Positions 189 through 59,321 of a DNA stretch of 64,000 nucleotides are shown here, one piece after another. The position numbers were made by a program, and so were the translations under genes. How positions within the stretch are numbered: the stretch's first letter is position 1; each line of letters opens with the position of its first letter. The notes under the pieces were generated by a model. It was not told the DNA's origin. It saw only the letters and a list, made by a program, of their open reading frames with translations, and ran no database searches. The stretch comes from Amoebophrya sp. A120 (Eukaryota; Protista; Dinoflagellata), in contig CAJINV010000006.1 in the NCBI GenBank assembly GCA_905178155.1, forward strand, positions 3,409,636 to 3,473,635. Reading direction: 5' to 3'.

Positions 189-3100
189 ATGTGAGGTTTA
201 AAGTCAGCAACCCCTGGGTCATGGTGGTGATGCAGGTAATGGTGATGTTGTCACGAATTCATCATGGTTTTTTGTCATGCGTGAAACTGCATGAGAAGGA
301 CTTTCTGTCATGCATAAAACCACTTTACAAATATTTGTTCATTCTGCCATTCACAACATATTCAGATCATCCGTTGGTCCACGATCGTCTGCATCTATAC
401 CGGCGCATTGATGGTTTTAGTTTCCGTCTGCGTGCTCGAGCACCCGAAAGACCCGGCAAAGACGCCGCCAGTCAGCTCGGCAATGAAGTGTGTGATGATC
501 TTGACGGTACTGTACCTCATTGTCTACTTCGGCCTGTTCCTGATGACCTCGCTCCGCACCTGCTTGGGCAGTCAGTTTGGTTCGTCCGTCCTCCGTGCGT
601 TCGACACGGCTCGCGGCACGGTATTCTTCGCGCCGATGCTGTATCCTGCGTAAAAACGTTCCCACCCCAGAGTTGTCATGCAGAATTACAATCACTGAAA
701 AACTTGTAATGCGCATTTCCATGAGAGGCATTTTCAATCGTGTTATGCAATTTGTGATGCTGTCAAGAGAATACCAGGATGGATTTGTGATGCGGTTGTC
801 CTTGCTAACCCGCACTACAGTACAGAGAAAAACTTGTCATGCGTGACTTCCAAAACTTCTGGATCTGTGTTGCAGAGTCCCCAACTTGACTCTGGGGTGG
901 GGACGTTTTTACACAGGATATGCTCTCCGTCCTCTTCCTCGGGTGCCGACTCCGGGCGTTGCAGCTGACGAAGACCATGGGGTCGCCGCAGGGATATGCC
1001 CAGGACTGGATGTTTCTGGCCACCTGGGCCATCATGGGGCAAGTGCTACTCTGCTTCTTCCTGGGTCTCTTATGCATTGCAAAAGCATCGTACTCGTATA
1101 AAAATAAATGCATTACAAATTTCCTCAGCATGAGAAAGAAAATTTGTAAATGTAATGCGGATTTACCTTACGAAGAAGATTTGTCATGCATATTTGCAAT
1201 TACTACGAGTGCGATACTTTTGCAGTGCATATCGCTTCGCGCCGGGCGATTCCTCCGACCTGAAGCCGGACGAGGACGGCAACCTGCATATCACAGGAAA
1301 AAGGGTTAGCGTTAACGGAACTTGTTCCGATGAGAATTTGTGATGCAGTAATGCATCACAAAACGTCGTGTCCAAATTTGTCATGCATAGCATGCATGCT
1401 CGGCAAAATTTGTCATGCGCGACTGCAAACCGTGAAGAACCATCAAAACCGTTGATGTTATACCTTTTTTGTTTGATACTCCAGCTTCCGGAGTCTGCGG
1501 ACGGCGGGAAACCGGGCATCGCACGGTACTTAATGGAAGGCTTCCGCTACTTGTGCATGTTCAGTACGTACGGCGCGGCCATCGGAATTTGCTACGCGAT
1601 CTATACTATCAAATGTAAAAATGTCTGGGTCTGGAAACTTGTGATGCTGTGTGGCGTATCATGAGGAGGCCACAATTGCTGGCTCAGCATGACAAGGTTC
1701 TGAGCTTCTAGGTGTTGCCTATTCATTCTGCATGACAAACTACGTCTGCTCTGCATGACAGAAAAGTGGGGCTCTTTGGTAATGTGCATGACAGATTTAA
1801 GAGTCATGCCAGACAAGCATGACAAACTTGCATTCTTCCAGAGGACCCAGACACTTTTACACTTGATCTACACCATGACCCCGACCAACGCAAACGGGTC
1901 CGGCTCGCTGTTCCCCTGGGGCCCGATATGACAGTGCACAACTCCCCCTCGTTCTCATTTCTCATGCAAAATCCCAAATCCAGTTGCTTCCTTGTATCAC
2001 TATTATGCATGACAAATTCCGCAAGTGGCCCAAACAGTACCACAGTGCGGGGCACACAAATTTGTCATGCATAGGCTCTACGTGTGCTGGTGTTTGTACT
2101 ATTGCTGTTCATGCTACACAAGTGAGGGGGAGAGGGGGGTGTGCACTCTCATACCCGATCCCCCAGCCCTTCGACCCGGCGGAAGCACTGCAGAACGCCG
2201 GAAAATATGCATTGCAAAAGTACCGTACTCGTATAAATGCATTACAAACAAGGTCCGAGCACGGGGACAGAGTCCCCGTGCGGCGACCTTCCGGCATTTG
2301 CCTGCCTGCGCGGTGGCACTGGGCAGGCAGGTCGCCTGCAGCTAGGTATCTCGGTGCGCCTTGCATTCACTGACCCGCGACGGGCCTGCGGACGCGGCAC
2401 CCTTGCTTGCGCGCACTAGGTCCGTTCACCTGCCGCGCGCAAAGATAATATAAAAGAAAAGAAGAAACAAACTGGCGCCGGGTGCGGATCTGGAGCGAGC
2501 CGGCCCGCAAGTCATGACGCGGCGACAGAATCCCCACACTTCTGCCCTAGGGATTTTCTTCGCCCCGTGCTTTCTTGGCCGCGGGGCGTGGTGTCCGGAG
2601 AGTGTTCGTAGCTAGCCCCTAGGCCATGACGCGGGGACCGAGTCCCCGCGCTTGCCTAGGGCTTTCGCCCCGTGGCCGCACGGTGCCCGGGAAGCACTTG
2701 CAGCTGACCCCTAGGCCATGACGCGGGGACCGAGTCCCCGCGCTGGCCTAGGAAGGGCCTTCGCCCCGTGGCCGCGCGGTGTCCGGGAGACAGTTGCAGC
2801 TGGCCCCTAGGCCATGACGCGGGGACCGAGTCCCCGCGCTGGCCTAGGGCTTTCGCCTCGTGGCCACACGTTGTCCGGGAAGCGCTTGCAGCTGACCCCT
2901 AGGCCATGACGCGGGGACCGAGTCCCCGCGCTGGCCTAGGGCTTTCGCCCCGTGGCCACACGGTGTCCGGGAAGCACTTGCAGCTGACCCCTAGGCCAGG
3001 ACGTGGGGACCGAGCCCCCGCGCTGGCCTAGGGCTTTCGCCCCGTGGCCGCACGGTGTCCGGGAAGCAATTGCTGCTGGCCCCTAGGCCATGACGCGGGG

Positions 3101-4729
3101 ACCGAGTCCCCGCGCTGGCCTAGGGCTTTCGCCCCGTGGCCGCCCGCACGTTGTCCGGGAAGCACTTGCAGCTGACCCCTAGGCCATGACGCGGGGGCCG
3201 AGTCCCCGCGCTGGCCTAGGGCTTTCGCCCCTTGGCCGCACGGTGTCCGGGAACGAAGCGCTTGCTGCTGACCCCTAGGCCATGGCGCGGGGACCGAGTC
3301 CCCGCGCTGGCCTAGGGCTTTCGCCCCGTGGCCTCACGGTGTCCGGGAAGCACTTGCAGCTGGCCCCTAGGCCATGACGCGGGGACCGAGTCCCCGCGCT
3401 GGCCTAGGGCTTTCGCCCCGTGGCCGCACGGTGTCCGGGAAGCACTTGCAGCTGGCCCCTAGGCCATGACGCGGGGACCGAGTCCCCGCGCTGGCCTAGG
3501 GCTTTCGCCCCGTGGCCGCACGGTGTCCGGGAAGCACTTGCTGCTGGCCCCTAAGCCATGACGCGGGGACCGAGTCCCCGCGCTGGCCTAGGGCTTTCGC
3601 CCCGTGGCCGCACGGTGTCCGGGAAGGAAGCACTTGCAGCTGTCCCCTAGGCCATGACGCGGGGACCGAGTCCCCGCGCTGGCCTAGGGTTTTCGCCCCG
3701 TGGCCGCACGGTGTCCGGGAGCGCTTGCTGCTCGTTGGCCCCTAGGCCATGGCGCGGGGACCGAGTCCCCGCGCTGGCCTAGGGCATTCGCCCCGTGGCC
3801 GCCCGCACGGTGTCCGGGAAGCACTCGCAGCTGGCCCCTAGGCCATGACGCGGGGAAAGGGCCCCCGCGCTGGCCTAGGGCTTTCGCCCCGTGGCTGGCC
3901 GCACGGTGTCCGGGAAGCACTTGGTTGCAGCTGGCCCCTAGGCCATGACGCTCGCGGGGACCGAGTCCCCGCGCTGGCCTAGGACTTTCGCCCCGTGGCC
4001 GCACGGTGTCCGGGAAGCGCTTGCAGCTGACCCCTAGGCCATGACGCGGGGACCGAGTCCCCGCGCTGGCCTAGGGCTTTCGCCCCGTGGCCGCACGGTG
4101 TCCGGGAAGCACTTGCAGCTGACCCCTAGGCCATGACGCGGGGACCGAGTCCCCGCGCTGGCCTAGGGCTTTCGCCCCGTGGCCGCACGGTCCGTCTCGC
4201 GACGCGTGACAGACTGGACCTCGGGGCCAAACCTCGCGTGACAAAGTCCGAAAGTTTGGCCGGGGTGTGTCCGAAAGTCTGTCTGGGGTGTGTCCGAAAG
4301 TCTGCCCGGGGTGTGTCCGGGGTGTGTCTGGGGTATGTTCGGACTTTTTGCCTGGGGTGTGTTCGGGGGTATGTCTGGGGTGTGTCTGGGGTGTGTCTGG
4401 GGTATGTTTATACCCCACCTTCTGCTTTTTCGCCAAAAATTTGTATTCAGGTCGTGACTGACTGCCATTTGCATACCCCTGACACACCCCCGAACATACC
4501 CCCGAGCATACCCCTCGCATGCATTTTTGACCAGCTGCTGCAGTTTAGATAGTAATTTCCCCAGCATGAGAAATGAAATTTGTAATGTGGATTTACCTTA
4601 AGAACAAGACTTGTAATGCAAGTCTTGCACTTATACGAATACGATACTTTTGCACAGGATAGAAAACAGCTCACCGTGCCGCCCCCGGCCGCTGCGTCGG
4701 GAAGTGCGGCTGCGGCGGGGTTTTTCTGA
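189..4729 (+). CDS. Multi-pass membrane protein of unknown function, 5'-partial, multi-exon
   Basis: Removing introns 236-365, 642-920, 1071-1231, 1289-1478, 1607-1868, 1927-2153 and 2206-4661 (each TIR intron plus one DR) gives a continuous frame: ...FFAPML|SVLFLGCRLRALQLT...GSPQGYAQDWMFLATWA...MTPTNANGSG...NAGK|QLTVPPP...GFF*, with several hydrophobic helices. Confidence 0.8.
236..365 (+). other. Canonical GT-AG intron carrying introner-like internal motifs
   Basis: tgcag|GTAATG...acatattcAG|atc; splicing gives VMVVMQ|IIRWSTIV in frame. Confidence 0.7.
642..920. mobile_element. Introner, TATCCTG.GTAAAAACGT.CCCACCCCAGAG family
   Basis: 31-bp TIR with 2 mismatches, DR tgctg/tgctc; relatives at 9518-9796, 25782-26069, 30795-31074, 50515-51020, 55102-55359, 62354-62699, and a partial copy ending at 188. 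Confidence 0.9.
1071..1231. mobile_element. Introner, TATGCATTGCAAAAG family (mostly 150-165 bp)
   Basis: TIR plus DR tctct/tcgct; relatives at 7088-7242, 7618-7800, 8208-8324, 9282-9438, 10364-10514, 19703-19866, 23719-23874, 25288-25427, 28679-28844, 28884-29031, 29758-29909, 49984-50131. Confidence 0.9.
1289..1478. mobile_element. Introner, TATCACAGG...GTTAACGG family
   Basis: DR ctgca/ctcca; relatives at 33396-33552, 40371-40534, 47128-47295. Confidence 0.85.
1607..1868. mobile_element. Introner, TATCAAATG.AAAA.TGTCTGGGTCTGGAA family (most abundant, about 18 copies)
   Basis: TIR about 29 bp; relatives at 6790-7032, 8379-8645, 9898-10197, 18972-19236, 22402-22653, 23343-23584, 25466-25717, 27011-27263, 35391-35651, 38288-38548, 52477-52718, 57374-57625, 59366-59617, 60560-60821, 63153-63404. 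Confidence 0.9.
1927..2153. mobile_element. Introner, TATGA(C/G)AGTGCACAACTCCCCC family
   Basis: DR cccga/cccga; relatives at 8843-9065, 31158-31374, 43874-44139. Confidence 0.9.
2616..4190. repeat. GC-rich tandem array, 92-bp unit, about 17 copies, palindrome-rich
   Basis: Unit CCTAGGCCATGACGCGGGGACCGAGTCCCCGCGCTGGCCTAGGGCTTTCGCCCCGTGGCCGCACGGTGTCCGGGAAGCACTTGCAGCTG(A/G)CC. Confidence 0.95.
4260..4516. repeat. Short GGGGT(G/A)TGT repeats followed by inverted CA(C/T)ACCCC copies
   Basis: Direct reading; units of about 11 bp. Confidence 0.8.
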
Positions 4730-5883: not shown

Positions 5884-8800
5884 ATGGCAACTGCGAGGAC
5901 TACAAGAACCTCGCAGAAAATTATGTCGTTCTTTAGTCAAGGTCAACGCGCTCGAAGCTTCTGTCTGCTTTTCGTCCTGCTGCAAGCGTGGTGGTGGTGG
6001 TTCCTCCTGCTTCCTTCAGTCCGCGCTGATGTGGAGGCTGTAGGAGCAACTGCTTCCAGCAGTTCAAGTTCTGTGGGACGAGGCACTGCTGTTGCGAATG
6101 AAGATGATGGTCCTGCATCCGCTGCTGCTTCTGGACCACCTGGCGTCGATGTTGAAACAAAGAGCGCTACAAGGAGGAGCGACGTCGATGATATCAAATC
6201 CAAACCGGAAGCACAAGCACAAACTGCAGACGTCGCAGGTGCCACCGAAAACCAAGACGACAACGACGACCTGGAAGGCCCTCTGCCCGACCGGCCGGAG
6301 CCCTGGAACGACCGGGAAACTTGGTACCAAAACGAAGATAAGCTCGATCTAGAAGAGGAACAGCAGGCGTTTAACGAGGACAACGCGATAAACGATATTG
6401 TGGACGACGAGGACGACGTGAGTGCTGCCAACTTGGACCACGACCAGCAGCAGTCACGACAACCAGAACGGGCGACACAACATACTCCTGCGGGCAAGAA
6501 GATAGAAGATGAAGGGCAGGAGGCGCAAAAACATCAAATAGACGGCCAGTCTTCCCTGTTAGAGGTGCAGGAAAAAATAAACAAGCAGCGCTTAAGCAGG
6601 GCAGGTGAAGCAGACAATAGCGAGGTGGGGGCGGGTGACGATGGTACTAGCAGTACGAGGAAAAATATGAAACCCCGTCCGAAAAAAGGCCACCTGGACA
6701 AGATCTTCAGTGACACGATTGACGAGATTTCTGAGCAACTGCCAAAAGACGAGTTTGAACTGGAGAAGCGAGAAAGCGCGCTCATGGATTATCAAATGCA
6801 AAAGTGTCTGGGTCTGGAAGATTGCGAGATTTGTCATGCTTGTGTGGCATGGCCAAAAAGTTTGTGATGCCTGTCCAAGAAGAGACCCTTTTGCCTGTCA
6901 TGCCAAAGCGCAGTTTGTCATGCGAAAAACGCAACACAGATATTTCTCATGCTTGGCTGTGCATTACAGAGCATCTACTATTCCCAACGCAGCATTACAA
7001 GTTTCCAGACCCAGACATATTTGCATTTGATATGGATCTGGTCAGCCTGAAATCCGATCTGGATCGCGACGTGGTGAAGAAAACCTCTATGCATTGCGAA
7101 AGTGTCGCACTCGTATAATGAATGCATTACAAATTTCTTCAGCATGAGAAATAAAATTTGTAATGTGGATTTACCTTATGAGCAAGATTTGTAATGCGTG
7201 TTTGCGATTTTTACTACGAGTGCGATGCTTTTGCATAGGATAACCTCGCTCGTCGAGCAAGACGCACAAAACCTCGACAACGACCTGCATAATCTGAAGG
7301 AAAAACAGGAAAAGGAACTGGTTTTGTCGCTACTCTATCCTGTGAAAAATGAGTATCGTGCGCCTACTAATCGCAATCTTGAATGACAGAAACAGATCTA
7401 GACCCTTACCTCAATCAACAAAAGCATGACAAATTCCCGTTCTGTTTTTGAAAAAGTTGGCTGTCATGCAATTTGTACCACACGCGATGCTTTTGCATTG
7501 CATAAACCCCACGGTGGAATGGACAGCGGACCGGTGGGTCGCAACAGCGGAAGTGGGACGGGTGAAACAGGCAGTGCTGGCGGTGGAACAGGCAGTGGCA
7601 GTGGCAGTGGATCAGCCTATCCCGTGCAAAAGTATCGCACTCGTACTAGTTGCTTTTTTGCATGACGTATCTTCTTCCTTAGGCTTAGCTAAACCCAATA
7701 ATTCAGCTCTAAATATTTCATTTATCACGCTGTCTGTGCAAATAATTTCTGTATGCAACTACTACCGTACCACCGCGATACAATACTTTTGCAATGCATA
7801 CAGGCAGTGGATCAACATTTGTGCAGCTAACAAAGGAAGACATCGAGAACTGGAGGCACCGGTATGGGCACTTCGTGTACCGCACCCTTTCCGCTGCCGA
7901 TCAAGCCAACGCACCGCAGAACGACTTGGAGCAGCGTGTCTTTCGTCTCTGCGAGCACATGGAGATTCGACCGCAGGAGTTTGATAAGCAGAAAACAGCC
8001 AACTTCTACGCAAAAACGGTAGCGCCAGCTGGGAGTGGGAGACAGAACCAGCAGAAATCATCGTCCTACATTCAAGAAAAAGAAAAAGCCGGGCAAATGG
8101 GAGCGAACGCCTTCGGCGAGGATGAGGAGGAGAAAAAGCTGAATAGCTCTCCCCTTGTCGACATTTGGTGCAACTTCAAGGACGCTGAGTTGTTGGACGC
8201 GGATCGGTATCCTGTGCAAAAGTATTGTACTCGTAGTAATTGCTGTCATGCATTACAAATTTTTTTTTCTCATGCTGAGGAAAAATGCACTTTTAGGAGT
8301 ACGAGGATACTTTTGCAATGCATAATCGGGCTGCTGATCCCGAAGCAAGGCGACCGGAAATTGTCCCCATTCCCGCCGTATCAACTGCAAATATCGCTGG
8401 ATGTCTGGAAAAGTGTAAACTTGTCATGGAGGTTTTCCATGACCCATGAGGTCTGGAATGCGGGGCCTAGCATGACAGACTCTGTGAGGTCTTTGCCATG
8501 CCTATCCTGCATGAGAAACTCCCTCCCAACTCGGTCGACAGTGGACAGCTTTTGGCATTCATGCAACACAGATTTTTGCGTGATTCGGATTTAGCATGGC
8601 AAGTTGGCACTCTTCCAGACCTCCCAAACATATTTGCAACGTATACGCCGCGAGCCTGGACGGAACGCGTCTGCTGCATCCCCAGGACGCACTGAAAGAC
8701 GTGAAAGAGCTCCGGTGGGACGGGAAGAAGCGCCTGTACACCATGGTTTCCAAACACGGGAAGCCAATCGCGAAGTTTGAGAAGGTGCACATCCCCTACG

Positions 8801-11800
8801 GTCTGTGGAAGATGGATTTTTCGCAACTCGCGCCCATAGACCTACGACAGTGCACAACTCCCCCTCCCCCTCATTTGTCATGCAAAATACCGAATCCACA
8901 TCTTGCCTTTAAGCACTCGGCGCTTCACAAGTTTTGGACGCCCAAACAGGACTACATTCCATGTGCGGATTTGTCATGCAAAAGCAACATTTACATTTGT
9001 GGCATTGCTTCTGTTACTGCTCATGCTATACAAATGAGGGGGAGGGGGCGTTGTGCACTCTCATAAGACCAGATCAGTAACTACATCGAGAACCGCGGCT
9101 ACGATCTGCGGATGCTCATGCCCGCCGTGTATGAAAAAACGGGACGCACGGACAGCACGGTGTACCAGTACATGGTGACAGAAGCACGAGAGGCCGAAGA
9201 CGACATGAATAATCCTTACCCAAACATGGTAACTGCGCTAGCCAAACTGCAAAAAGAGTGCGAGTACGTCCTCATCCGACCTATCGAATGCAAAAATATA
9301 GCGCTGTACTAGTATGAATTGCATCACAAATTAGCTCAGCATTACAAATGAAACTTGCAATGCTGTTTTACCCTATAGGAAAGAGATTTGTCACGCATAA
9401 CAGCAATTACTACGAGTGCGATACTTTTGCAGTTCATACGCCCTATGCAACAGCAACACGCGGACCTCGAAACCGCATCCGAGGAAGAAGAAAAAAGCGT
9501 ACCTATCTACGCCGGTATATCCTATGTAAAAACGTACCCACCCCAGAGTTGTCATGCAGATTTGCCATGACAGGAACATTTGTGATGCGCAACCCCATAA
9601 CAGGCATTTTCAATCGTGTTTGGGAACTTGTAATGCTGTAAACAGGATCAGAAGGTCGATGTGTGATGCGGCTTTCCTTGCTAACTTGCACTACCTTACG
9701 GACTGAAACTTGTCATGCGTGACTCCTAAAACTCCTAGGTTTGTGTTGCAAAATCCCCATCCTGACTCTGGTGTGGGTACATTTTTACTCAGGATACGGT
9801 AGTACCAGCGGCCCTCCCGCAAGTGGAAGTAGTCGCGCTGTCGGGAATGCGGCCCTGGACGCTGCGTTCAGCCAGGACGTGGCTTACTGTCTCCAGATAT
9901 CGATTGCAAATATCCCTGAATGTCTGGAAGGATGCGAACTTGTAGAAATGCGTGTTCCGAATCAACATGCGACTGTCGCGCAGGACCTGCAAAAGTTGCC
10001 CAGTTCTGGTCATGATGAGAAGCCATTTTTCATTGCAGAATAATACACATCGCCTAGTGCAAGTAGGGGCTGCAGAACCTGTGAAGATCATGCTAGGCCC
10101 TGCATATTCCAGACTTGGCAGAGCTAGAGCTTGGAACAACTGCATGACAATAAATCGCGGAACCTTGTTCCAGACCCAGACACTTTTGCAGTTGATACCA
10201 GAGCGAATTATTTCGGAAGCGGACCAGAATTTTAAACTTCTCCCAGAACAAGCGCGCCGGGGTGGTGTTAGCAGACGTGTCAGTGGATGACATCGGGGCG
10301 GACGCTGGGGAGGGAAAGACATTTAAATTTGATCCAAAACTTCCGATGGCATTTGTGTTGGCGTATGCATTGCAAAAGTCTCGTACTAGTATTACTCGCA
10401 TGACAAATTCATATCAAAAAGAGAACTGAAATTTGTAATGCGGATTGAGATAAGAAACCAGATTTGTCATGCATAACTGCGATTCCTACGAGTACGATAC
10501 TTTTGCACAGGATATGGCGCCGCTACGAGCGATTCCGGACGGGTACGAGCCAACCTGGGTCAGTCGAGACTATCAAAAGTAAAAATGTCTGGGTCTGGAA
10601 GTAGAGCACAACTTTGTCATGCACATTTTCCATGATCCATGATATCTGTGATGTATGCCATAGCATCACAGACTTTTTGAGCGCTTACCTATGCGCATCC
10701 AGCACAACAAATGCCCTCTCCGCGTAGCCAAATTTGAGTCCTCTTGCTGGTCATGCAATACAGGTTTTCTGAGCATCCAACACATATATCGCAAAGTCAT
10801 GCTTGCTGGTCATGCAATACAGGTGGACTGTACAGGCGCGACACATATATCGCAAAGTACAAGGAGGAAGAACGCGCAGCAGTCGTGAAGCAAATGAAAC
10901 CGCTGCTGCAAGAACTAGAAGCGACAGCGAAGCGCGCCGACCTCCGAATTTTCGGCGGCGATATGAATGCCGAATTCTACGAGGGCGCCGACGGCGAATT
11001 TCTATTCGCTCGGGAGAAAGTAGCGCCAGTCATCTACGAGGAAGTTTTAGCGCCCCTCGCTCGCCTAATGTCCCTCTATACCAAGTACCGCTGCCCGGCA
11101 GGCCCGACCTGCTTTCGGACCACACCCAGACGGATTGACTTCGCTCTAGTAGGCGCCGAAGACGCAAACTCGCTCAAGGTGAGGCAGAAGCGGGCTAAGG
11201 TGCCGGCCAATTGGCAGTATGAGTTCGGCAAGAAGCAAACGCGCTGCCAGTGGCTGAAGGACGACGAGACCCCAGATGAAGCCGAGGCGGACCATCTAGC
11301 ACTCCATACAGTAATCCGGTGGAGGCCGACGAAGGACGAAACGGGGCAGGGAACAACCGGGGCAGATCGAAACAACATTGGAACAGCAGGCAAAAAGCCG
11401 ACAGCGTTTAACGCAACATACGCTGATAAAAAACCGGGCGGACCCGCGGCCACGGGCAGAGTCAAGGTCCTGAAGAGCAAGGCGGAATTCGAGAAGTGCG
11501 CCCCCTTCCCCGGCGCCATATCCTGGCCTAGGGGGGCAGCGAAGAAAGAACAACTGGCGCCGGTCCTCGAAGCCGCAGAAATGCCAAGCGCGTGCGAAGT
11601 AGGTCTCGACGGCATACAGAACTGGATCAGGGATCTTCTGAAAACGGAGTGCCCGCTGAAGGCAAAGAATTTAATGACCCAGCAGATGGAAGCATTCTAC
11701 GGCCGGAAGGGGGGAAGGAAGGCGCACCAGAAAAAGACGCAGCAAAGCAATGAACCTGAGCAGACGGGCCCTGCCAGCACGACTGAAACAGCTGACGAGA

Positions 11801-14800
11801 AGGACACGCGCATGAAGAAGGAGAAGGCGCGTGAGCTACTAGAAAAATGGCAAGCAACCTACCCGAAACTTGAAGAAGACGACACCGAGGACAGCATCTA
11901 CAAGAAAGCAAGAAGGGTCAGGAAGCTAGTAACGGGGCAAGCGCGTGGCGAACTTGCAGGCGAGCTCAGCAAGATCAACATAGGCACGAAAGAGCAGCCG
12001 GACTGGGTAGAAGGGACGGAGAAAGTGACAGAGGAGGTCGCTTTCTATCACCTACTCAAAAACGAACTGACTCGGGCTGCCGAAGGCCTCGGGCACACGT
12101 TCAACAAAGTCGAGTTCAACAAAGCTTTCCAGCAATTAACGGACGCGTCGGAACACGTCCCGGAGATCGTCACTACTGGGCCACAGTTACGTAAAACCCT
12201 GGGTAGAATGAATGGCGAAGCCGCCGGCGCCGACGGAATGCGCGTCGAGGGGCTGAAATCCCTCACCGACAGCCAACTGCAGGAAGTTGCTGCAGGAGTG
12301 ACTGACTTCTTGCGGAAAGTCGGCAAGGCGATTAACTCCCCCGGCAACATGAGCCAGCTCATCCCGCACGCGCTTACAGTGCTGCAGGTCGAGATCCTGA
12401 CGAAAGCGTCGGGGCCGATTACGGAGGTCAGCAAATTCCGCGCCGTTATTAAGAACACCCCAGTAATGAAACTCCTAGTAAGCCACCTAACTTACATTGC
12501 GACGCGAGTGGCCGACATCAATGACGTTTTCACCCGGTGCGGCGCAGCTGGGAAGCCGGCAGCCTCCTGCACGCTCCAGCTGCTAGAAGTGCTAGAGAGT
12601 TGCCACGGGGCCGAACTGAGCGACGGCTACGACGGCAAAGACGAGACAAGCAAGAACGACGGCGATCAAGGAGCAAAAGCAGTAGCAACCGAGCCACCGA
12701 CCGCGAACGGGAACACGGGAGGAGAACAGACCACGGAGGAGAGCCAAAAAGAAGGAGCGACGGCAGGCAAGAGTAGTAGCAACCTATCCACAGAAGCAGC
12801 AGAGGCAGCAGTTGAAGTAATCGACTGGATCAAGCTCTTAATGGGCCTCGACGCTAGTAATTTTTACAACTGCCTGACGTTGCCGACAGCCGTGCGGTGT
12901 ATGAGACGCGCTCGCTTGCACCCGACGTTTATCAAGTTGATCATGCTCACTACGTGGTCGAAGAAGATCTTCCTGAGGAACGGGAACCACTACGGCGAGG
13001 TCAAAGCACATCGCGACCTCATCCAAGGCTCCGTAGAGTGCATGCTAATAGGAACAATCGTCTACATGGCCGGGGTGCAGAAGGTGGCCGAATTCTTCGA
13101 AGAGTGCTACGACGAAACAGGTCGAATAGTAGCAGGCAAAATCGACGGCGCGACCCACAAACTGCGAAGGAGTATCAGGGAGCTCTACAAAGGCGACAAC
13201 GACATCGACACGTCCTTCCCAGATTACAGCACGAGCGAAATTGACGAGCTTTGGTTCGATGCGGGATCGCTAGGCGGATCGACAACAGGATACCGGCGGA
13301 CACAGACCTGGAACAAATATCGGAAGGTGTACGTGCAGACACATCAATCCGGAAAGCTCCAGAGCCCGGAAGAGCCAGCGCGGCAGAAAACTTCCTCAGC
13401 GCTTCAATTTGTCGATGATGGGACCCTTTGTCTCAGGTACAAACCTGCAGACCACGCACTAGCGTTGCGACTACTGAGTGCTGTGAAAACGGTCTACGAA
13501 GACATCTACCGAAGTGAAGGTCAGTATCTTGCGCCGTTAAAGTGCGAATACGTTTTTTCCGGAACAGCAGAACAGTCGGAGCAGGTCCGTGAGGTTTTCT
13601 CCCCATTCGGGATCGAGTTCAACGAGAAGAAAGCTGCGAAGATCTTGGGAGTGACAATCAGCCTGAGTAGTATCGACGAGCAGCGCGCGGCACTTAGGAC
13701 GCAAGTCAGAAGAGCGATCGGGACGGCACAACACCACACGGAACAGCTGATGGTCGCGCAGCCCCGGATGGACGGCAAGGAACTTCGAACAGCAGTGCAG
13801 GTCTTCTTCCTCTCCCCGCTGCTTTACCGATTGCCGGCTATGCATTTGATCTTCAAGCCAGAGGACTGGACAGAGCTACTGACAGACATTTCGTTCGGCG
13901 CAGCCAGGTCGCTGGGCTTTAGCTGGGAGGCCATAGCAAAACTAGCGGAGAAGGCAAAGACCGGAGGTGGCGAGTTCTACCGTATCATCTTCAGCGAAAA
14001 CGTTCTGGCTTTGGTCGACCCGTATCTGCTAGGCATCAAGATTCTACGGTCAGCGGCGCAGGCTGGGTACTTGACAGATCCCGACAGATTGATCAAGTGG
14101 GCGACCTTTCCGATTTCTCTTCACGGAGCAACGAGCACAGGTCTGACAGAATCAGACGCGGCTGACATCGACGACAAGAACCAGGCCGATGTCGCGTTGT
14201 TGGACGCAGCGGCAGCAGGCGCGTCAACGAGGTTGCCACCAGCAAGTGATCTACGGTGCACGGGGTTCGTCCCGGATCGTTCCGGGCTCAGTGAGGAACC
14301 CTCACAGAGAACCGCCCACCGCCGCCGCTTCTTTAAAATCGAAGCCAATAATGCCGGTGATGGAATCGCATGCAGTGAGACGGACATCCTCGGGACAGTA
14401 GTAAGGCCGAGCGTTTTGCAGGTGAAGACAGTGCGAACACACCTGAGGACCGAAACCGGCAGGAAGGAACAGCGGGCAGCAGCATACATCAACAACGCCT
14501 TGTATGCGATGCCATTGCTGATCCAGGAACAACAGTCGGATGGAGGAGAAAGCTTCGTAATTTCGCTAGAAAACTACCAGACACTTCACGACGGAACAAA
14601 AGGACCGATCCGGAAAGGCCAAGGGATCGCTTTGGACCTGGTAGAAGCAATCGAGGGACTACAACTTCTAGGCCATCGGGTCCTGCGAAAAAACAGCCAG
14701 AACCGGACGGAGCTAAACGCGGCGCAAGGCGTGCATGAGATCCCCCTCAGGTTCGTCAACATCTCCGGACATGACAAAAACATGGACTGGCCGATCTATG

Positions 14801-17800
14801 AGTTCGGTGAGGAACTATTTGCGTTCGGACCGGTTTCGACCTGGCAACGGATGAGCAAAAAGGAGCGCGGCGCTTTCCTTGCCCAGGCCCTAGGAGTAGA
14901 AACAGACGAGGAGGCGGCAGAGCGGGCACGAAAAGAACGAGAAGCCGAGAGAACACAACCCCAGCCCAAGGCGCCACAGGGGGCGAGTCAGAGTAGCGGG
15001 ACTGCCGGAAAAAAGTCGACTAGCGGCGCAGGACCAAAGAAAAAACAGGCAAAAGCGAAAGCCCCGGGGCCTGCACCACCACAGCCGGTAGGAGAAAAAA
15101 CACCGCCACCAAAACGCAGGAGGGTTTCAGAGCAGTCGGACGACGACGCAGGCGAAAAGAGAAAGCCCAACAGAAAAGCACCACCAGCGCCGGCAGCCGC
15201 GGCAGAAGAGCAACCAACAGCAAAGGCCCCGACACAGAAAAAGACAAAGGGCGCGGCTGGGCCGAAACCGAAGCCACCAGTAGCCACGGCAGCAGGAAAA
15301 GCCCCAGCAAAAGCTCCGGAACAGAAAAAGGCGAAGGGGGCTGCCGGACCGAAGCCGAAGGCAACGGAAGCCAAACCGCCGCAACCCAAGGCGGGCGGAA
15401 AGAAGAGATCTGCAGAGGAGGCGGAGGCGCTCCCGGGTGTGGCAAGCAAAAAACAGAAGCAAACCAGCAAAAAACAGGAGGAAGCCAACCCAGCGAGAAA
15501 AAAGCCACCACCTAAACAGAACGAGGCGCCGCGACAGGCCGCTAATTCCGCAGCGGAAAACACCGCAGAAGCGGCGCCACCGAAGAGCGAGCAAGCCGAG
15601 ACACGGAAGACCCACGGAACAGAGCAACTGGCTACGCAGGGAGATCGGGAGGACGCGAAACCTGCAAACGGGCTCGGCGGGAGGGCCGAAGCAGAAAAGC
15701 AGGAAACAGCGGCAACAGAGAAAAGCAAGGCACAACCGGCGAGGCCGGGTGCCATGTTTACGTCGACGAGCCAGTTCTCGATGGTCGGTGACCTGTTCCG
15801 CGAACTGGAACGCAGCCGGAACAACAGCAACCAGCCAGCCTCTCACTCCTCCTCAGCCTCTTCCTCCTCGTCCGCAAATACGAAAGCCAAGTAAAAAAAA
15901 GAAGAAAAGAAGAACCCCACTCGTCGAACCCCGACGGATACCCCCTCAAGCCCATCCCTCCCCGCATAGTAGTACCCCTTACCTACATGAAGAGCGAGGG
16001 ACCTCGTAGCACCAGGCGGAATGGAAAATAGTAGCTACCCCCAGATGATAGCAAAGTAGCGAACGACGACCCGGAGTGCGCAGAATCGGTTGTAGACATG
16101 GCGGCAAATCGACCGACGAAAAAGAGCGCGCGAGATAACCACACTGAAACCAAGCAGACACCTGACTGACGTTTTGTACATATAGAGCTGCACAAAGATG
16201 AAAAAAAGAGAAAAAGGAAAAAAGCGCAAGCCGTCCGGCGGGGCGGCCGCTCCTATCCATCACACATCGGAGCACTCGATGTTCCTGCTCGGTCCCGGCG
16301 ACGACGAGGGGTAGCGAGAGCCACAGCACGGAGCGACACAGAGGAAAAGAGAGTAATCCAAAAACGCATGGCCTCACGTACGTACACTTCTGCACTTTTG
16401 TCTTTGCTCCCCGAAAGGGGGTTTCCTGTGGGGGGGGGGTGCGGGAAGTCTAAAAGCAAATGGAACGAAAGCCGCCTGCAAGCGAAGCGATCAAAAACCA
16501 CGGCAGAAGCGATGTCATGCGGGTGATGTGGTTCAGGGGCGATTGCGATCCCCCATTAGGCATGGCGATAGCAAGGGCGTTGCACGACGCGAAGATCTGT
16601 CATGCAGTTTGAACGTGCCAGAACCAAGCCCCACAGTCAAGACGACAACAGCGGCAAAGTGATCAGCCTTCGGGCGTGCGCGATGCTCGTTCCATCTACT
16701 TTTTCGACGATTCACTTCCTTCACCAGGGCCTTGCTCAACCCTGGACCAGAACGAGTAGGACCAAGGACCCAAGAGGTAGGCACTGTAGCGGAAAGTTGG
16801 AGCAAAAAAAATTTTTTTTGAAAAAGGACCCAATAGGAGCCGACCTGCGTGGATGGTTATAAAACAGGTAGCCTGACCCCAAATGGCAATGATCATTGGG
16901 AGCAGCAGAGCGCAGCAGGACCCCGGGACTGCAACAGCTCACCCCTGTTTTAACTTAGAATCACGCAGTGCTCCGAGTATGCCACTACCTCGACCCCTCA
17001 AGAAAAGAAGTAGCCCCCCCAACTACAACACCGCCGTCCGCGATCAGGATACGACTTGTACTAACCAACATTGTACCAACCGAGATCCCGCGGGGCGCAG
17101 GGTCTGGGCGGCTCGAAGCAGAACGCGCAGCACAAGCGGGAGACAACACATCCAAAGGTGGGGATGGTCTCAGGTCGTTCAGGTCCGCCAAGGGTTGCGA
17201 CGCGCTATCAGGGTTTCGCCAACTCCGCGGGGGCGTTGCGGGTAACTCCCTAAAACACCAAAACCGGCAGAAATTAGGGCCGGCAGTCCGGGTAATTGCT
17301 CACCAGTCGTTTTGTATGACGAACCAAGAGGTGCAACGCGAACAGATAGGCATGAATTTAGCATCTCCGGCTGGTAGAGCAATCGGCTACCGAGGTACGT
17401 CAGGGGGCGTAGCTACATCAATCAATCCAAATGTAGCATCACAAGTTTGGCTCTTCCAGGCCCAGACACTTTTGCATTTGATAGAGACGCGCCAAGCACG
17501 AAACTGTACCCCAGCGACATTGGCAGCGAGAAACGGGAGCGAATCGACGAGGACGCTCACCGATTGAAAACCATCTTCGCGCTATGGAAGTGTCAGGATC
17601 GAAATCATCAGAGTTGAAATAATTTGTGACGCATAAAACGATTAACCCGTTGGCGCCTTGTTTTCAAGTGGCGCATGATGACAAATTTGGGTAGAACTGA
17701 AATCCAGTTTGTGATGCTGTTTCGGTAAGGAAGACGCCTGCTGTATTTGTCATGCTACTTTAGCAGCTCAATTTCTACCCCTCGACAGGCTTGCAATCTG

Positions 17801-19984
17801 CATCTTCCCTTACGTCCTCTGCATCAATAGAGGCAATTTCTTCGTTGCATTTTATGCATCACAAAGAACTATTTCAACTTTGACGATTTCAATTCTGACG
17901 CTTCCATACGCGCTTCGCCCGACCACGAGCCTCGTCGAGGAAACCAAGAGAGCGTGGGACGAGAGTAATGGCGAAGGGAGTGCTATCGCAAAAAAAAACT
18001 GTTTCACTGTGAACTTGTGATGCATAGAATGGAACACAGAACTATTTGGCTTGCCACACCTGCAAGACATTGGATTTTTTAGCGTGTTTTCCCTTGGGAA
18101 GCGCACATGGCAAACTTTCTGTGTCATGTGTAGCAAACTGGTGATGCGGATCTTGCAAAACCATCACAGTGAAACAGTTTTTTCATGGGATAAGTGCGAC
18201 CGGGGGCCTGAAACATAAGGTCACGTCCTTTAACAAGGAACTGCACGGGGCCGTTGAGGACAAACAGGTAGCACAGCACGGGACCTTTTCAAGCGATTAC
18301 TACACGCCGGAGGTGGACAGGTTAAGCCATCCTGGTGCTGCGACGCTGCATATCATACAAAAAAAGTTCGTCGCGATCACTCATGCGCATTTTTGCAATA
18401 CAGAACCTTCTGTCATGCTTAAAAATGCACCACAGCCAACCCTCGTAGGGGATTGCCCTAGAGTTTCTCCAATACAAGGAATAAGTAGCTGCGATGCTAA
18501 AAAAATTTGTAATGCAAAACCTGCACAGTAGTCGGTGAATTTGACAAAATTTGTTCTGTCCATACCGCAATCCTGTGTGTTACTATTCGACGCAGACCTA
18601 GACTATCAAAATGAAAAATCTTAGCCCCTCCCCATATCAAAACGGATACTTGTGATGCTGATTTGTAGTCACAAATCAGCTTTGTCGTGCACATAAGGTA
18701 ATGGGAGCCATTTGACGCATTCCAGACCAAGTCTCTCATGCGCTTTCGAGTACTGCAAACCTGTTGGCCATGCGCAATTGCTAGCCTTCTGCATAGTACC
18801 CAAACAGGCCTAGAAAATGCCGCCAAGCACTTTCTGCAAGACAACTCTGATTCGTGTACGCAAGTCTAGCATCAGGAACTGCGTTTCGATATGGGGAGGG
18901 ATGATTTTTCCTTACGATATAGACCGCCTCTTCCCCCGCTGCGACATGTACCACCTGCGTGACCAAATGCTTATCAAGTGCCAATATGTCTGGGTCTGGA
19001 AGATTGCGAGACTTGTCATGCAGATTTTCCATGACCCATAAGGTCTGGAATGCGAGACCCAGCATGACAGATTCTTTGCGGTCTCTATCATGCCTCTCCT
19101 GCATGAGAAACTTCCTGTCAATTTGGTCAAAAGTGGACAGCTTTTGCCATGCGTGCAACACACATTTTTGCACGATCCAGAATTTGCATGACAAGTTGCA
19201 GTGTTCGTCCAGACCCAGACATATTTGCATTTGATAATGCTGCGCCGCCTGCAAAACCCGTTCAGCAGCGCCAGCAGCATATCCACAGTAAATTTCCCGT
19301 ACACGTACAAATACAGTCACTGCATCACAAAACTTGCCTTCAATCCTAGTCTAGCATGACAAGTTGGGCACTGCAAGTTAGCGAAATTTGTCATGCATTT
19401 TGTACATCATGTACAGGAAATTTACATTGCATACAGCAGTGCAGCTTCAGCCGCCTCGACAGCAGCAGCAGCAGCCGCCGCAAGTGCTGCTTCTTCAGCA
19501 ACAGAACTTGTCGATAAAAAAACGGCAAAATCCCGTGAGGAAGACAACCACGAGGACGATCACACTGCGAGAGCCACCCGCGCGTCTCCTACTGCCAATC
19601 AAGAAAAGAAGCCAAATGAACTAGCGCCAAACGAGGGAGTAGACCACGCCAGCAGCGCACTTCAGGAGAAGGAAAAAGTCCGAATCAACGACATTCATTG
19701 GGTATGCACTGCAAAAGTACTATCGTACTCGTACTAGTTGCAGACATGCATGACAAACACAAATCGCCTTCCTTAGCTAAAACAGCATTACAAATTTTAT
19801 CTGTCATGCTCAGGAAATTTGTAATGCAATTTATACTAGTACGATGGGATGCTTTTGCACTTCATATTGGGTGGGGTTTCGCTTTCACCGGTGGTCCAGA
19901 TCGATTGGGCTTGGCAATTACGAATCTGAAAAAATAGAAGTAGATTTGGGTCTCATGGAACAAACCTGTCATGCAAATTTGTGA
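5884..19984 (+). CDS. Large putative secreted protein of unknown function, about 19 introner introns
   Basis: Signal-peptide-like FCLLFVLLQAWWWWFLLLPSVRA; frame is continuous across the junctions translated, e.g. ESALMD|LVSLK, YCLQ|SELFRK, TWVSRD|APSTKLY, INDIHW|VGFRF; exact start and stop uncertain. Confidence 0.75.
10744..15894 (+). CDS. APE endonuclease-reverse transcriptase polyprotein with degenerate RNase H-like region and Lys/Ala/Pro-rich tail (N-terminus truncated; first codons derive from the junction)
   Basis: APE motifs GGDMN, PTCF...RRIDFALV, ADH; RT motifs AAGADG, FRAVI, LDASNFYN, LIQGS, QFVDD, KILGV. Confidence 0.9.
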   Translation: MLVMQYRFSEHPTHISQSHACWSCNTGGLYRRDTYIAKYKEEERAAVVKQMKPLLQELEATAKRADLRIFGGDMNAEFYEGADGEFLFAREKVAPVIYEEVLAPLARLMSLYTKYRCPAGPTCFRTTPRRIDFALVGAEDANSLKVRQKRAKVPANWQYEFGKKQTRCQWLKDDETPDEAEADHLALHTVIRWRPTKDETGQGTTGADRNNIGTAGKKPTAFNATYADKKPGGPAATGRVKVLKSKAEFEKCAPFPGAISWPRGAAKKEQLAPVLEAAEMPSACEVGLDGIQNWIRDLLKTECPLKAKNLMTQQMEAFYGRKGGRKAHQKKTQQSNEPEQTGPASTTETADEKDTRMKKEKARELLEKWQATYPKLEEDDTEDSIYKKARRVRKLVTGQARGELAGELSKINIGTKEQPDWVEGTEKVTEEVAFYHLLKNELTRAAEGLGHTFNKVEFNKAFQQLTDASEHVPEIVTTGPQLRKTLGRMNGEAAGADGMRVEGLKSLTDSQLQEVAAGVTDFLRKVGKAINSPGNMSQLIPHALTVLQVEILTKASGPITEVSKFRAVIKNTPVMKLLVSHLTYIATRVADINDVFTRCGAAGKPAASCTLQLLEVLESCHGAELSDGYDGKDETSKNDGDQGAKAVATEPPTANGNTGGEQTTEESQKEGATAGKSSSNLSTEAAEAAVEVIDWIKLLMGLDASNFYNCLTLPTAVRCMRRARLHPTFIKLIMLTTWSKKIFLRNGNHYGEVKAHRDLIQGSVECMLIGTIVYMAGVQKVAEFFEECYDETGRIVAGKIDGATHKLRRSIRELYKGDNDIDTSFPDYSTSEIDELWFDAGSLGGSTTGYRRTQTWNKYRKVYVQTHQSGKLQSPEEPARQKTSSALQFVDDGTLCLRYKPADHALALRLLSAVKTVYEDIYRSEGQYLAPLKCEYVFSGTAEQSEQVREVFSPFGIEFNEKKAAKILGVTISLSSIDEQRAALRTQVRRAIGTAQHHTEQLMVAQPRMDGKELRTAVQVFFLSPLLYRLPAMHLIFKPEDWTELLTDISFGAARSLGFSWEAIAKLAEKAKTGGGEFYRIIFSENVLALVDPYLLGIKILRSAAQAGYLTDPDRLIKWATFPISLHGATSTGLTESDAADIDDKNQADVALLDAAAAGASTRLPPASDLRCTGFVPDRSGLSEEPSQRTAHRRRFFKIEANNAGDGIACSETDILGTVVRPSVLQVKTVRTHLRTETGRKEQRAAAYINNALYAMPLLIQEQQSDGGESFVISLENYQTLHDGTKGPIRKGQGIALDLVEAIEGLQLLGHRVLRKNSQNRTELNAAQGVHEIPLRFVNISGHDKNMDWPIYEFGEELFAFGPVSTWQRMSKKERGAFLAQALGVETDEEAAERARKEREAERTQPQPKAPQGASQSSGTAGKKSTSGAGPKKKQAKAKAPGPAPPQPVGEKTPPPKRRRVSEQSDDDAGEKRKPNRKAPPAPAAAAEEQPTAKAPTQKKTKGAAGPKPKPPVATAAGKAPAKAPEQKKAKGAAGPKPKATEAKPPQPKAGGKKRSAEEAEALPGVASKKQKQTSKKQEEANPARKKPPPKQNEAPRQAANSAAENTAEAAPPKSEQAETRKTHGTEQLATQGDREDAKPANGLGGRAEAEKQETAATEKSKAQPARPGAMFTSTSQFSMVGDLFRELERSRNNSNQPASHSSSASSSSSANTKAK
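10781..17424 (+). mobile_element. 5'-truncated non-LTR (LINE-like) retrotransposon
   Basis: Apparent TSD ATCCAA (10775-10780 and 17425-17430), short (ATCA)n tail, APE-RT ORF, about 1.5 kb of 3' untranslated sequence. Confidence 0.85.
17583..17908. mobile_element. Introner, TATGGAAG(C/T)GTCAGG family (about 305-325 bp)
   Basis: DR cgcgc; relatives at 52825-53140, 56412-56718, 59857-60166; related pair 52126-52430 and 63435-63739 are close copies in opposite orientation. Confidence 0.9.
17984..18192. mobile_element. Introner, TATC.CA.GAAAAAACTGTTTCACTGTGA family
   Basis: DR agtgc; relatives at 39701-39909 and 50232-50458. Confidence 0.85.
18604..18919. mobile_element. Introner, TATCAAAATGAAAAATC...TCCCCATAT family
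   Basis: DR tagac; relatives at 34993-35320 and 56039-56359. Confidence 0.85.
19280..19433. mobile_element. Introner, TATCCACAG.AAATTTCC family
   Basis: DR cagca; relatives at 26762-26944, 28461-28631, 51137-51287. Confidence 0.8.
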
Positions 19985-57900: not shown

Positions 57901-58474
57901 TGGCTAGGCTTGTCTTTTCTTCCTTGGTTAACAGAGAGCGAGGCTCTCCGTCTAGGGACCCTCCACCTAGGTGCTCGGCAGCGAAAGGTTGCTGGACCGC
58001 ATTCATAGCTGATGAAGATCTTGCATCAACCGCCCCAGCGACCGGCTCTACTTCTCTGCCGCGGGAGAGAACAGTGCTAACAAGCGGGCGCTGGGCAAGG
58101 AGGTTCGCAAAATCTGCGGAATACGCGTGGTTCTTTTCTGTACGTCCTTCTTCGGGAGCAACAGCACCCCCGTCGATCCGGATGGGAGCGAAGTAGTCTT
58201 CCAAGTTGGCAACTGGAAGTACAGCCTCGTCTTTGCTGGTTGTACCACGAGTAGGCGACCGTCCGGCGCCACGACTCCGTCCCGACGAGGAAGGGCTTCT
58301 ACTTGGCCGCCCTCGGCCAGCACCAGAAGAGGACGACACCTGAAGTTCCAGGGCTTGGCACGTATCAACGACACTGCTCGACGTCATACTTTCCGATAAA
58401 AGAAGCAAGGCCGCCGCGGTGCTGCCGGCCAACTTCCACGACACAGACGAGGTTTTGGTAGTTTCCTTCATCAT
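54943..58474 (-). CDS. Putative secreted protein, tandem paralogue A
   Basis: Signal-like WKLAGSTAAALLLLS; blocks RPKLTAVFEFALNT, YAELRKVAV.LRHTP, NRWPWYQTQSW shared with paralogue C; 6 introners. Confidence 0.75.
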
Positions 58475-59128
58475 TATTGTGCAACTTCTACTACTTATTT
58501 GCTAGAAGTGCTGTTTTACTTACAAATGGAAAGGAAATGTCTCCTCCTTTCTTGTCACGAATTTGCAGGTGAAGACAATGGCTTGAAAAACTTCGATATT
58601 ACGGGTGGAAAAATAGTGGGTGTCAAACGTTATAGAGCGATCTATAATCGCTATGGTCAGAGTAACAATTTTTTGTAAAGAATAACAATTCGTCTAACTA
58701 GGATCTTCTGCACAGAGGTTTTTTCGTAACTCAAAGTTGTACTAGGTGAAAGTACGTAGAATTACAAGCTGTTGAACTGTGGGGAAGACCAACATGATTT
58801 GGCAAGTGCATGTTGTCTGTCACAACAGAATATTAGAACGATCTCGGAGGCCAGGCGGGTGCGAGTACGACATACGCCGCGCCTGCGAAATTTTTCATCA
58901 AGTCAGCATCCTGAATTTTATCCACCGAATGTAGGTCTTGTACCGACCCCACCTTCGAGGGGGACTGCTTAGAATTGCGAGTTTTTCGTGACCAGCAGCG
59001 AGAGAGCACAAAAACAAGAAACGACCGCGGATTTTGTCATTTTGATCTTATTGGATGATCCTGTCTATAATTTTGGTCGTGATGTGGATCTGCCGACGCT
59101 TGGCACACGAATCCAAAGAACCGATATG

Positions 59129-59321
59129 NNNNNNNNNNNNNNNNNNNNNNNNNNNNNNNNNNNNNNNNNNNNNNNNNNNNNNNNNNNNNNNNNNNNNNNN
59201 NNNNNNNNNNNNNNNNNNNNNNNNNNNNNNNNNNNNNNNNNNNNNNNNNNNNNNNNNNNNNNNNNNNNNNNNNNNNNNNNNNNNNNNNNNNNNNNNNNNN
59301 NNNNNNNNNNNNNNNNNNNNN
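59129..59321. other. Assembly gap (N run)
   Basis: 193 Ns; the 3' part of paralogue B is missing, so the true gap is probably larger. Confidence 0.99.

What the first reader, a model, noticed from the sequence alone, without database searches (positions are those of the whole stretch)
10571..17483. A 6.6-kb RT-encoding LINE sits inside one non-canonical intron, in the host sense orientation
Seen: introner TIRs and DR GAGAC bracket an uninterrupted APE-RT ORF of about 1,700 codons, and the host frame reads TWVSRD|APSTKLY across it. The TSD ATCCAA resembles the (ATCA)n tail. Inference: a recent insertion; the excised intron RNA would contain the whole RT ORF, and the composite (TIRs plus LINE) could be moved as a unit by whatever mobilises introners.
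Basis: partly seen in the sequence, partly recalled or inferred. Interest (0 to 1): 0.8.

Follow-up and report, generated by a model that had tools for sequence, protein, structure and literature searches.

The report
Truncated LINE inside a spliced introner
A 6.6-kb retrotransposon that lacks its front end sits inside one of this marine parasite's small hairpin-ended introns, and likely RNA-derived sequences skip the whole 6.9-kb block cleanly, so it is likely a dead passenger, and the odd intron's two ends are likely enough for its removal.

Summary
Observation mostly confirmed. A TIR introner (10571-17483, 5-bp repeat GAGAC) of Amoebophrya sp. A120 holds a 6,644-bp insert (10781-17424) with target duplication ATCCAA; without it the introner is 263 nt, like its family. 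A predicted fold places the ORF's polymerase with non-LTR (R2, LINE-1) reverse transcriptases; Pfam and PDB sequence searches miss it, and all 10 relatives found are divergent, 9 named as Amoebophrya. Corrections: the element is 5'-truncated inside its endonuclease (first two motifs missing), has a 44-nt patchwork 5' junction, and the (ATCA)n tail is two units. Contigs of two probable RNA runs (one sample) join the host exons across all 6,918 nt, and the spliced host protein equals public model CAD7954096.1 (1066 of 1066). DNA contigs bridge the left junction and show the LINE body at single-copy depth, with depth rising towards the 3' end. Verdict: a nested, probably dead LINE copy, tolerated because the introner ends still define the intron. 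No support for the composite moving as a unit. Value: a natural test of an unexplained splicing system and an undescribed LINE lineage.

The parts
5884..19984 (+). Host gene, 1066 aa, no Pfam family; 19 TIR introns between 6790 and 19866; the composite sits at codon phase 0 after residue 796
   Evidence: identical (1066 of 1066) to CAD7954096.1 / GSA120T00014611001 of Amoebophrya sp. A120
10566..10570 (+). Introner direct repeat GAGAC, left copy
10571..10780 (+). Introner 5' part (210 nt) with left TIR 10571-10601; ends in the first ATCCAA (10775-10780)
10781..10824 (+). 44-nt junction filler: 17 nt copied from the LINE (10842-10858), 4 nt CATG, 23 nt copied from the introner (10743-10765)
   Evidence: present without mismatch in a DNA contig 10708-11484
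10825..15894 (+). LINE ORF, 1689 codons plus stop, 5'-truncated: C-terminal half of an APE-type endonuclease (GDMN 10957, RIDF 11131, DHLAL 11290), RT (LDASNF 12847, IQGS 13021, FVDD 13408), conserved unassigned domain about 14300-14940, low-complexity tail; first inner Met at 10894
15895..17424 (+). LINE 3' untranslated region (1530 nt), multi-copy in the genome by contig depth; ends in ATCAATCA (17417-17424)
   Evidence: no Rfam match (48), no unusual fold of 17200-17430, z 0.13 (88)
17425..17483 (+). Second ATCCAA (17425-17430) and introner 3' part (53 nt) with right TIR 17453-17483
17484..17488 (+). Introner direct repeat GAGAC, right copy

Best explanation
A 5'-truncated non-LTR retrotransposon of an Amoebophrya-specific lineage sits inside a 263-nt TIR introner, where it likely arrived by target-primed reverse transcription, and it is likely a dead passenger that is removed together with the intron because the introner's two paired ends likely still define the splice. 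Steps: (1) shown: introner with 5-bp repeat in a coding exon; (2) shown: insert with 6-bp duplication at introner position 210 of 263; (3) inferred: cDNA synthesis was primed at the nick with 3 nt of match (ATC) to the RNA's 3' end, stopped inside the endonuclease domain and was joined by end-joining repair that copied short pieces of LINE and target into the seam; (4) shown in probable RNA contigs: host exons are joined across 6,918 nt at the same kind of junction as the neighbouring 156-331-nt introners; (5) inferred: pairing of the TIRs brings the ends together, so interior length and continuity do not matter, and any 3'-side signal lies in the last 59 nt; (6) inferred: the copy cannot nick DNA by itself and has no promoter of its own.
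For: Anatomy. RT identity: all 14 Foldseek matches at E<=0.001 are R2 or LINE-1 proteins; best VIA-align Z 16.8, rmsd 5.8, 400 aligned, R2, on a model of mean pLDDT 67.7. Endonuclease: 3 of 10 relatives hit Exo_endo_phos families (one above cut-off, E 1.9e-6); 6 of 7 long relatives aligned carry WN- and xET-like motifs 138-198 residues before GDxN, this copy has only 44 LINE codons there (the seventh, P0003, has a SNARE-like N-terminus). Splicing: joint 10565->17484 skipping 6918 in X7 (depth 4.8, 51 letters on the short side) and X8 (2.4); X7 shows 8 of the 10 predicted introner joints in the stretch, X8 2 of 10, X9 0 of 10; one X7 contig carries the exons on both sides and the neighbouring joints. 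Public gene model has the same protein. The 5' arm's best RNA duplex partner in the intron is the true 3' arm, -52.7 kcal/mol against -32.1 for the best other place, mean -16.6. DNA run X1: contig 10708-11484 (depth 24.8, 0 mismatches) runs unbroken through the left junction; 11460-15187 is one contig at depth 21.6, within the 19-29.6 of four unique flanking contigs; depth rises to 30, 39, then about 190-250 near the 3' end, the profile expected from 5'-truncated siblings. 5' truncation with end-joining scars is the usual LINE-1 outcome (PMC10760644, passages seen).
Against: X7-X9 are only guessed to be RNA, are one sample of one study, and are contigs at low depth; a spliced joint looks the same whether the intron was 268 or 6,918 nt long, so the runs do not show that those cells carried the LINE. 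Contig depth is a rough proxy for copy number (tool's own warning). The right junction was not among the listed bridging pieces. RT assignment rests on a predicted model with about 10-12% identity; no sequence search found it. TIR pairing as the splicing signal is a published hypothesis (PMC7789003), not a tested mechanism. The multi-copy 3' 0.6-1 kb could be a separate short element.
Confidence: 0.82

Rival explanations
1. The insertion is real but the spliced RNA came from cells with the empty introner; in carriers the gene is damaged (transcript ends in the LINE or is mis-spliced).
For: RNA and DNA runs are different samples and studies; the joint cannot tell intron length.
Against: The DNA contig runs unbroken through the left junction at single-copy depth, with no sign of a branch to an empty allele; no second near-identical LINE body, hence no source element, is seen in that DNA, so an insertion during culture is unlikely; listed RNA exon pieces have 0 mismatches.
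Confidence: 0.08
2. This intron-resident copy is the source of the shorter 3' siblings: the host promoter transcribes it, the excised intron serves as template and message, and its RT (with an endonuclease lent by a full-length relative, or at existing breaks) copies it.
For: It is the longest copy at 90% identity or more that X1 shows, siblings are about 99% alike, no full-length source is seen; sense orientation; RT frame and DD motif intact; a full-length relative with 25% identity exists in the same organism (P0005).
Against: Endonuclease motifs are missing; no spliced-leader relic in the window beyond chance (motif recalled); loss of a source element by outcrossing or deletion explains the depth profile more simply.
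Confidence: 0.06
3. TIRs plus LINE form one mobile unit moved by the introner machinery.
For: TIRs and 5-bp repeat are intact; a TIR-flanked A120 family with retroelement-like ORFs and several near-identical copies is published (PMC12130899, section seen).
Against: Body and left junction at single-copy depth; the arms are 60-78% identical to 7 family members in the window, an old introner around a young LINE; no transposase of A120 was found by PMC7789003. A cut-and-paste move would leave no second copy, so it is not excluded, only unsupported.
Confidence: 0.03
4. Misassembly that joined a LINE contig into the middle of a repeat.
For: Introners are high-copy repeats; the window has an N gap and a suspicious 2-kb duplication elsewhere.
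Against: 6-bp duplication exactly where family homology stops and resumes; DNA contig across the left junction; matching TIR and repeat at both ends.
Confidence: 0.01

Closest known systems
Introner elements / non-canonical introns of Amoebophrya sp. A120 (PMC7789003; sections 5, 11, 12, 16 and passages seen)
   Same: IR starting TAT and followed by an A-stretch, 3-5-nt direct repeat, repeated family, non-canonical ends, spliced out; the paper also reports non-LTR retrotransposons in the genome and a longest A120 intron of 35,152 bp (median 247).
   Different: The paper describes introners as short and empty; in the sections read it does not describe a LINE inside one or splicing of a split introner. 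Its supplement was not read.
A120 introner families with retroelement homology (PMC12130899; section 6, passages, Dataset S2 rows and SI appendix search seen)
   Same: Dataset S2 lists A120 TIR families of about 230-305 nt with peptide hits to LINE/I-Jockey (fam16), LINE/RTE-BovB (fam6) and, unclassified, LINE/Tad1 (fam2), and boundary coordinates of 7-8 kb, which I read as long members holding nested elements like this one (inference). Family 38 has TIRs around retroelement-like ORFs.
   Different: Family 38 has several near-identical copies and LTR-type homology; this element is single-copy, non-LTR and has its own inner target duplication. 'nested' occurs 0 times in that paper's main text and SI appendix.
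APE-type non-LTR retrotransposons (human LINE-1 ORF2p; single-ORF RTE-like layout recalled) and R2 RT
   Same: Endonuclease-RT order, RT fold with thumb, target duplication, 5' truncation with repair scars, 3'-biased copy profile.
   Different: About 10-12% identity, long insertions inside the RT, no Pfam RVT hit in this or any of 10 relatives, no poly(A) tail, no CCHC knuckle seen by eye, long lysine/alanine/proline-rich tail, 1.5-kb 3' UTR. Clade not assigned.

Membership tests
APE-type non-LTR retrotransposon (LINE) | RT domain of non-LTR type | tested here: met
   14 of 14 Foldseek hits at E<=0.001 are R2 or LINE-1; Z 16.8, rmsd 5.8, 400 aligned; DD invariant in 9 of 9 rows. Sequence searches blank (12, 13, 41).
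APE-type non-LTR retrotransposon (LINE) | APE endonuclease N-terminal to the RT | tested here: met
   GDxN and DH motifs align with relatives, 3 of 10 of which hit Exo_endo_phos families; in this copy only the C-terminal half is present.
APE-type non-LTR retrotransposon (LINE) | Target-site duplication, no long terminal repeats | tested here: met
   ATCCAA on both sides; self-comparison shows no terminal repeat of the insert.
APE-type non-LTR retrotransposon (LINE) | 3' poly(A) or simple-repeat tail | tested here: inconclusive
   Only ATCAATCA, two units; no tandem repeat called there; sibling ends not seen.
APE-type non-LTR retrotransposon (LINE) | Dispersed, mostly 5'-truncated copies | tested here: met
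   Contig depth 21.6 on the body, 30, 39, then about 190-250 towards the 3' end; rough proxy, loci not seen.
Autonomous (full-length) LINE copy | Complete endonuclease and intact 5' end | tested here: not met
   WN- and xET-like motifs of 6 of 7 long relatives absent; 44 codons before GDxN against 138-198 from the WN motif in relatives.
A named LINE clade (L1, RTE, I, Jockey, CR1) | Placement in an RT tree; ORF1, RNase H, CCHC content | not testable with these tools
   No reference RT sequence was returned by any search; profile of the C-terminal domain found nothing meaningful in PDB; Atlas unanswered.
Amoebophrya A120 introner element | IR beginning TAT with A-stretch and 3-5-nt direct repeat | tested here: met
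   definition from PMC7789003 section 11
Amoebophrya A120 introner element | Repeated family | tested here: met
   Empty 263-nt form is 60-78% identical to 7 of 7 window members compared.
Amoebophrya A120 introner element | Removed from the mRNA, non-canonical ends | tested here: met
   Joint skipping 6918 in 2 of 3 probable RNA runs; 0 of 6 registers GT/GC/GA-AG; public protein model agrees.
TIR-flanked composite mobile unit (like A120 family 38) | Several near-identical copies of the whole unit | tested here: not met

The most novel reading that the evidence does not exclude
A promoter-less, endonuclease-dead LINE copy lives on as the source of its family: the host gene transcribes it, non-canonical splicing releases it as a 6.9-kb intron RNA, and that RNA is reverse-transcribed into new sites, at times with the introner's 3' arm attached, which would tie a retroelement to introner RNA in a genome with no known introner transposase.
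Probability: 0.06. Interest if true: 0.85.

Novelty: new member of a known kind. Interest (0 to 1): 0.42.

Why it matters
How Amoebophrya removes introns without GT-AG ends (U1 snRNA was not found, PMC7789003) is open. This locus is a natural insertion mutant: an introner split at 210 of 263 nt and stretched 26-fold still appears to be cut out exactly, which favours end-pairing, limits 3'-side signals to 59 nt, and makes introners safe harbours for retrotransposons in a compact genome. It also exposes a LINE lineage that Pfam misses and whose full-length members are annotated as ordinary unnamed genes. The arrangement itself, a dead LINE nested in an intron, is ordinary.

Tried and rejected
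Pfam and PDB sequence searches of the ORF: nothing; PDB profile searches: only weak unrelated hits or none. Word-indexed protein searches with the ORF and with the alignment: 0 hits among about 8000 candidates each; the exhaustive search found 10. Metagenome scan: 1 locus of 103 candidates, a spurious bacterial match; viral scan: 0 of 11. Raw RNA runs X4-X6 laid only short partial reads on introner-like stretches at 90-95% and next to nothing on exons: another strain, no evidence either way. No RNA holder was listed as such. The LINE body has no cover in X7-X9; contigs cannot show silence. Two of 10 predicted joints were not seen in X7 (9282-9438, 17984-18192). Single-sequence fold of the endonuclease fragment failed, pLDDT 34. 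RNase H in the C-terminal domain was considered from recalled pattern: not supported, left open. Rfam: 0 matches in 10500-17600. Spliced-leader relic: 2 weak matches against 2.9 expected. No inner TIR element or AATAAA in the insert. ESM Atlas gave no answer. Literature searches for a described LINE inside an Amoebophrya introner (listings only) showed none; subscription papers are not searched. PMC11371274 and PMC12005148: passages seen, nothing used.
Full report
Setting. The window is packed with short elements that begin TAT, end ATA and are flanked by 5-bp direct repeats: 61 were kept by my scan after dropping 5 overlapping or chance pairs, 59 of them 117-506 nt long. These match the introner elements described for Amoebophrya sp. 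A120 (PMC7789003, section 11), and the host protein was later returned under that name.

Outer element. 10571-17483 has 32-nt inverted repeats, 88% complementary, and GAGAC on both sides. Removing it and 18 other elements between 6790 and 19866, each with one repeat copy, gives a 1080-codon frame on the + strand; 0 of 5000 random-phase joins reach this (max 865), and shifting this junction alone cuts it to 835 or 858. Two of the 19 elements were added after a relaxed search. From its first Met the protein is 1066 aa and identical to CAD7954096.1, so the public gene model already spans this intron. It has no Pfam family (7 exon pieces). No cut register within the repeat gives GT-AG, GC-AG or GA-AG.

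Inner element. Alignment with family members shows introner homology stopping after ATCCAA at 10780 and resuming with ATCCAA at 17425; the closest member carries the hexamer once. The empty element is 263 nt, 60-78% identical to 7 members. The insert is 10781-17424, 6,644 bp. Its first 44 nt are a patchwork: 17 nt repeated from 10842-10858, four letters, and 23 nt repeated from the introner at 10743-10765. I read this as templated filler from end-joining at a truncated 5' end (inference; 5' truncation with end-joining scars is the common LINE-1 outcome, PMC10760644 passages). The 3' end is ATCAATCA directly before the second ATCCAA: three letters of match to the target, compatible with priming by microhomology but weak, and too short to call a family tail.

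The protein. The frame is 1718 codons stop to stop, 1689 of them LINE-derived; shuffles give at most 488. Pfam and PDB sequence searches find nothing. An exhaustive search of 1.84 billion representatives found 10 relatives, 24-33% identical; 9 are named Amoebophrya (AT5, A120, A25), 1 is unnamed. None hits an RT family in Pfam; 3 of 10 hit endonuclease/exonuclease/phosphatase families. A model of 12160-14100 built on 9 sequences (pLDDT 67.7) matches R2 and LINE-1 proteins in all 14 Foldseek hits at E<=0.001; VIA-align ranks R2 first (Z 16.8, rmsd 5.8, 400 aligned), then LINE-1 (14.3) and group II intron RT (12.6). So it is a non-LTR RT. The endonuclease is cut: 6 of 7 long relatives have WN- and xET-like motifs 138-198 residues before GDxN, whereas this copy has 44 LINE codons there. 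That these motifs hold catalytic residues is recalled from LINE-1 endonuclease. About 95-155 codons, and any 5' UTR, promoter or ORF1, are missing.

DNA evidence (run X1, contigs). One contig covers 10708-11484 without mismatch at depth 24.8, through the left junction and the filler, so these are not assembly products and no empty allele branches off. 11460-15187 is one contig at depth 21.6; four unique flanking contigs lie at 19-29.6. From 15158 depth climbs: 30, 39.3, then about 190-250 at 16873-17276; the two long 3' contigs differ from the window at 2 of 317 and 4 of 990 letters (plus 3 gaps). Taken as a rough copy proxy: one copy of the body, about two of the last 2.3 kb, about ten of the last few hundred bases, all closely related. 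This is the profile of a recently active LINE family with 5'-truncated copies, and it shows neither a second composite nor a full-length source at 90% identity or more. X1 may be the source of the assembly; the right junction was not among the 8 pieces listed.

RNA evidence (runs X7-X9, guessed RNA, one sample, contigs). The joint 10565->17484, skipping 6,918 letters, stands in X7 and X8. X7 shows 8 of the 10 predicted introner joints in 9070-19280, X8 2, X9 none; one 385-nt X7 contig joins the exons at 10203-10358, 10515-10565 and 17484-17577 and goes on across the next introner. Host transcripts thus cross the element and reach downstream exons. Limit: the joint does not reveal the intron's length in those cells. 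Since no source element is seen in the DNA, an insertion during culture is unlikely, so the RNA cells probably carried it (inference).

Mechanism. Order of events: introner first (arms 22-40% diverged from relatives), LINE second (no stops, perfect duplication). The host tolerates it because the intron is still defined by its ends: the 5' arm's best duplex partner in the 6.9 kb is the true 3' arm (-52.7 kcal/mol; best elsewhere -32.1; mean -16.6, sd 3.9), in line with the hairpin model proposed in PMC7789003, which is untested. Confidence 0.82; rivals: RNA from empty-allele cells 0.08, this copy as family source 0.06, unit movement 0.03, misassembly 0.01.

What is known. Non-LTR elements, and introns up to 35 kb, are reported for A120. 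PMC12130899 attributes some A120 introner families to non-LTR elements and describes family 38, TIRs around retroelement-like ORFs in several copies; its Dataset S2 lists short TIR families with LINE peptide hits and 7-8-kb coordinates (10 of 18 'LINE' places seen), which suggests that nesting like this is already in that data, though the word 'nested' is absent from text and appendix. The supplement of PMC7789003 was not read and may describe the repeat classes further. I found no description of this locus or of this RT lineage in six literature searches (listings only).

Verdict. Real and well supported; a new member of a known kind (truncated LINE nested in an intron), in an unusual host intron and from a deeply divergent lineage. 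Interest 0.42.

Noticed in passing
window 2206-4661: A second stretched introner (TIRs, GAAAA repeat, 2,456 nt) holds a GC-rich 92-bp tandem array of about 17 copies (2610-4191) and short GT-rich arrays (4246-4520): another case of cargo inside introner ends. Splicing not tested.
   Followed up: partly
window 57330-59621: About 2-kb tandem duplication with an identical introner copy and paralogous ORFs around an N gap (59129-59321); may be an assembly duplicate or a very young gene duplication.
   Followed up: no
P0002, P0004, P0005, P0006, P0012: Full-length APE-RT relatives in Amoebophrya AT5 and A120 are annotated as ordinary unnamed genes (P0005 = CAD7924442.1); none of the 10 scanned hits a Pfam RT family.
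   Followed up: partly
window 16803-16820: Perfect 18-nt A/T palindrome in the LINE 3' UTR, at the start of the most repeated part.
   Followed up: no
window 14300-14940: A conserved domain after the RT thumb, shared with 4 relatives at 13-22% identity, without any family match.
   Followed up: partly
window 37093-37500: Array of 68-72-bp repeats, about 6 copies.
   Followed up: no
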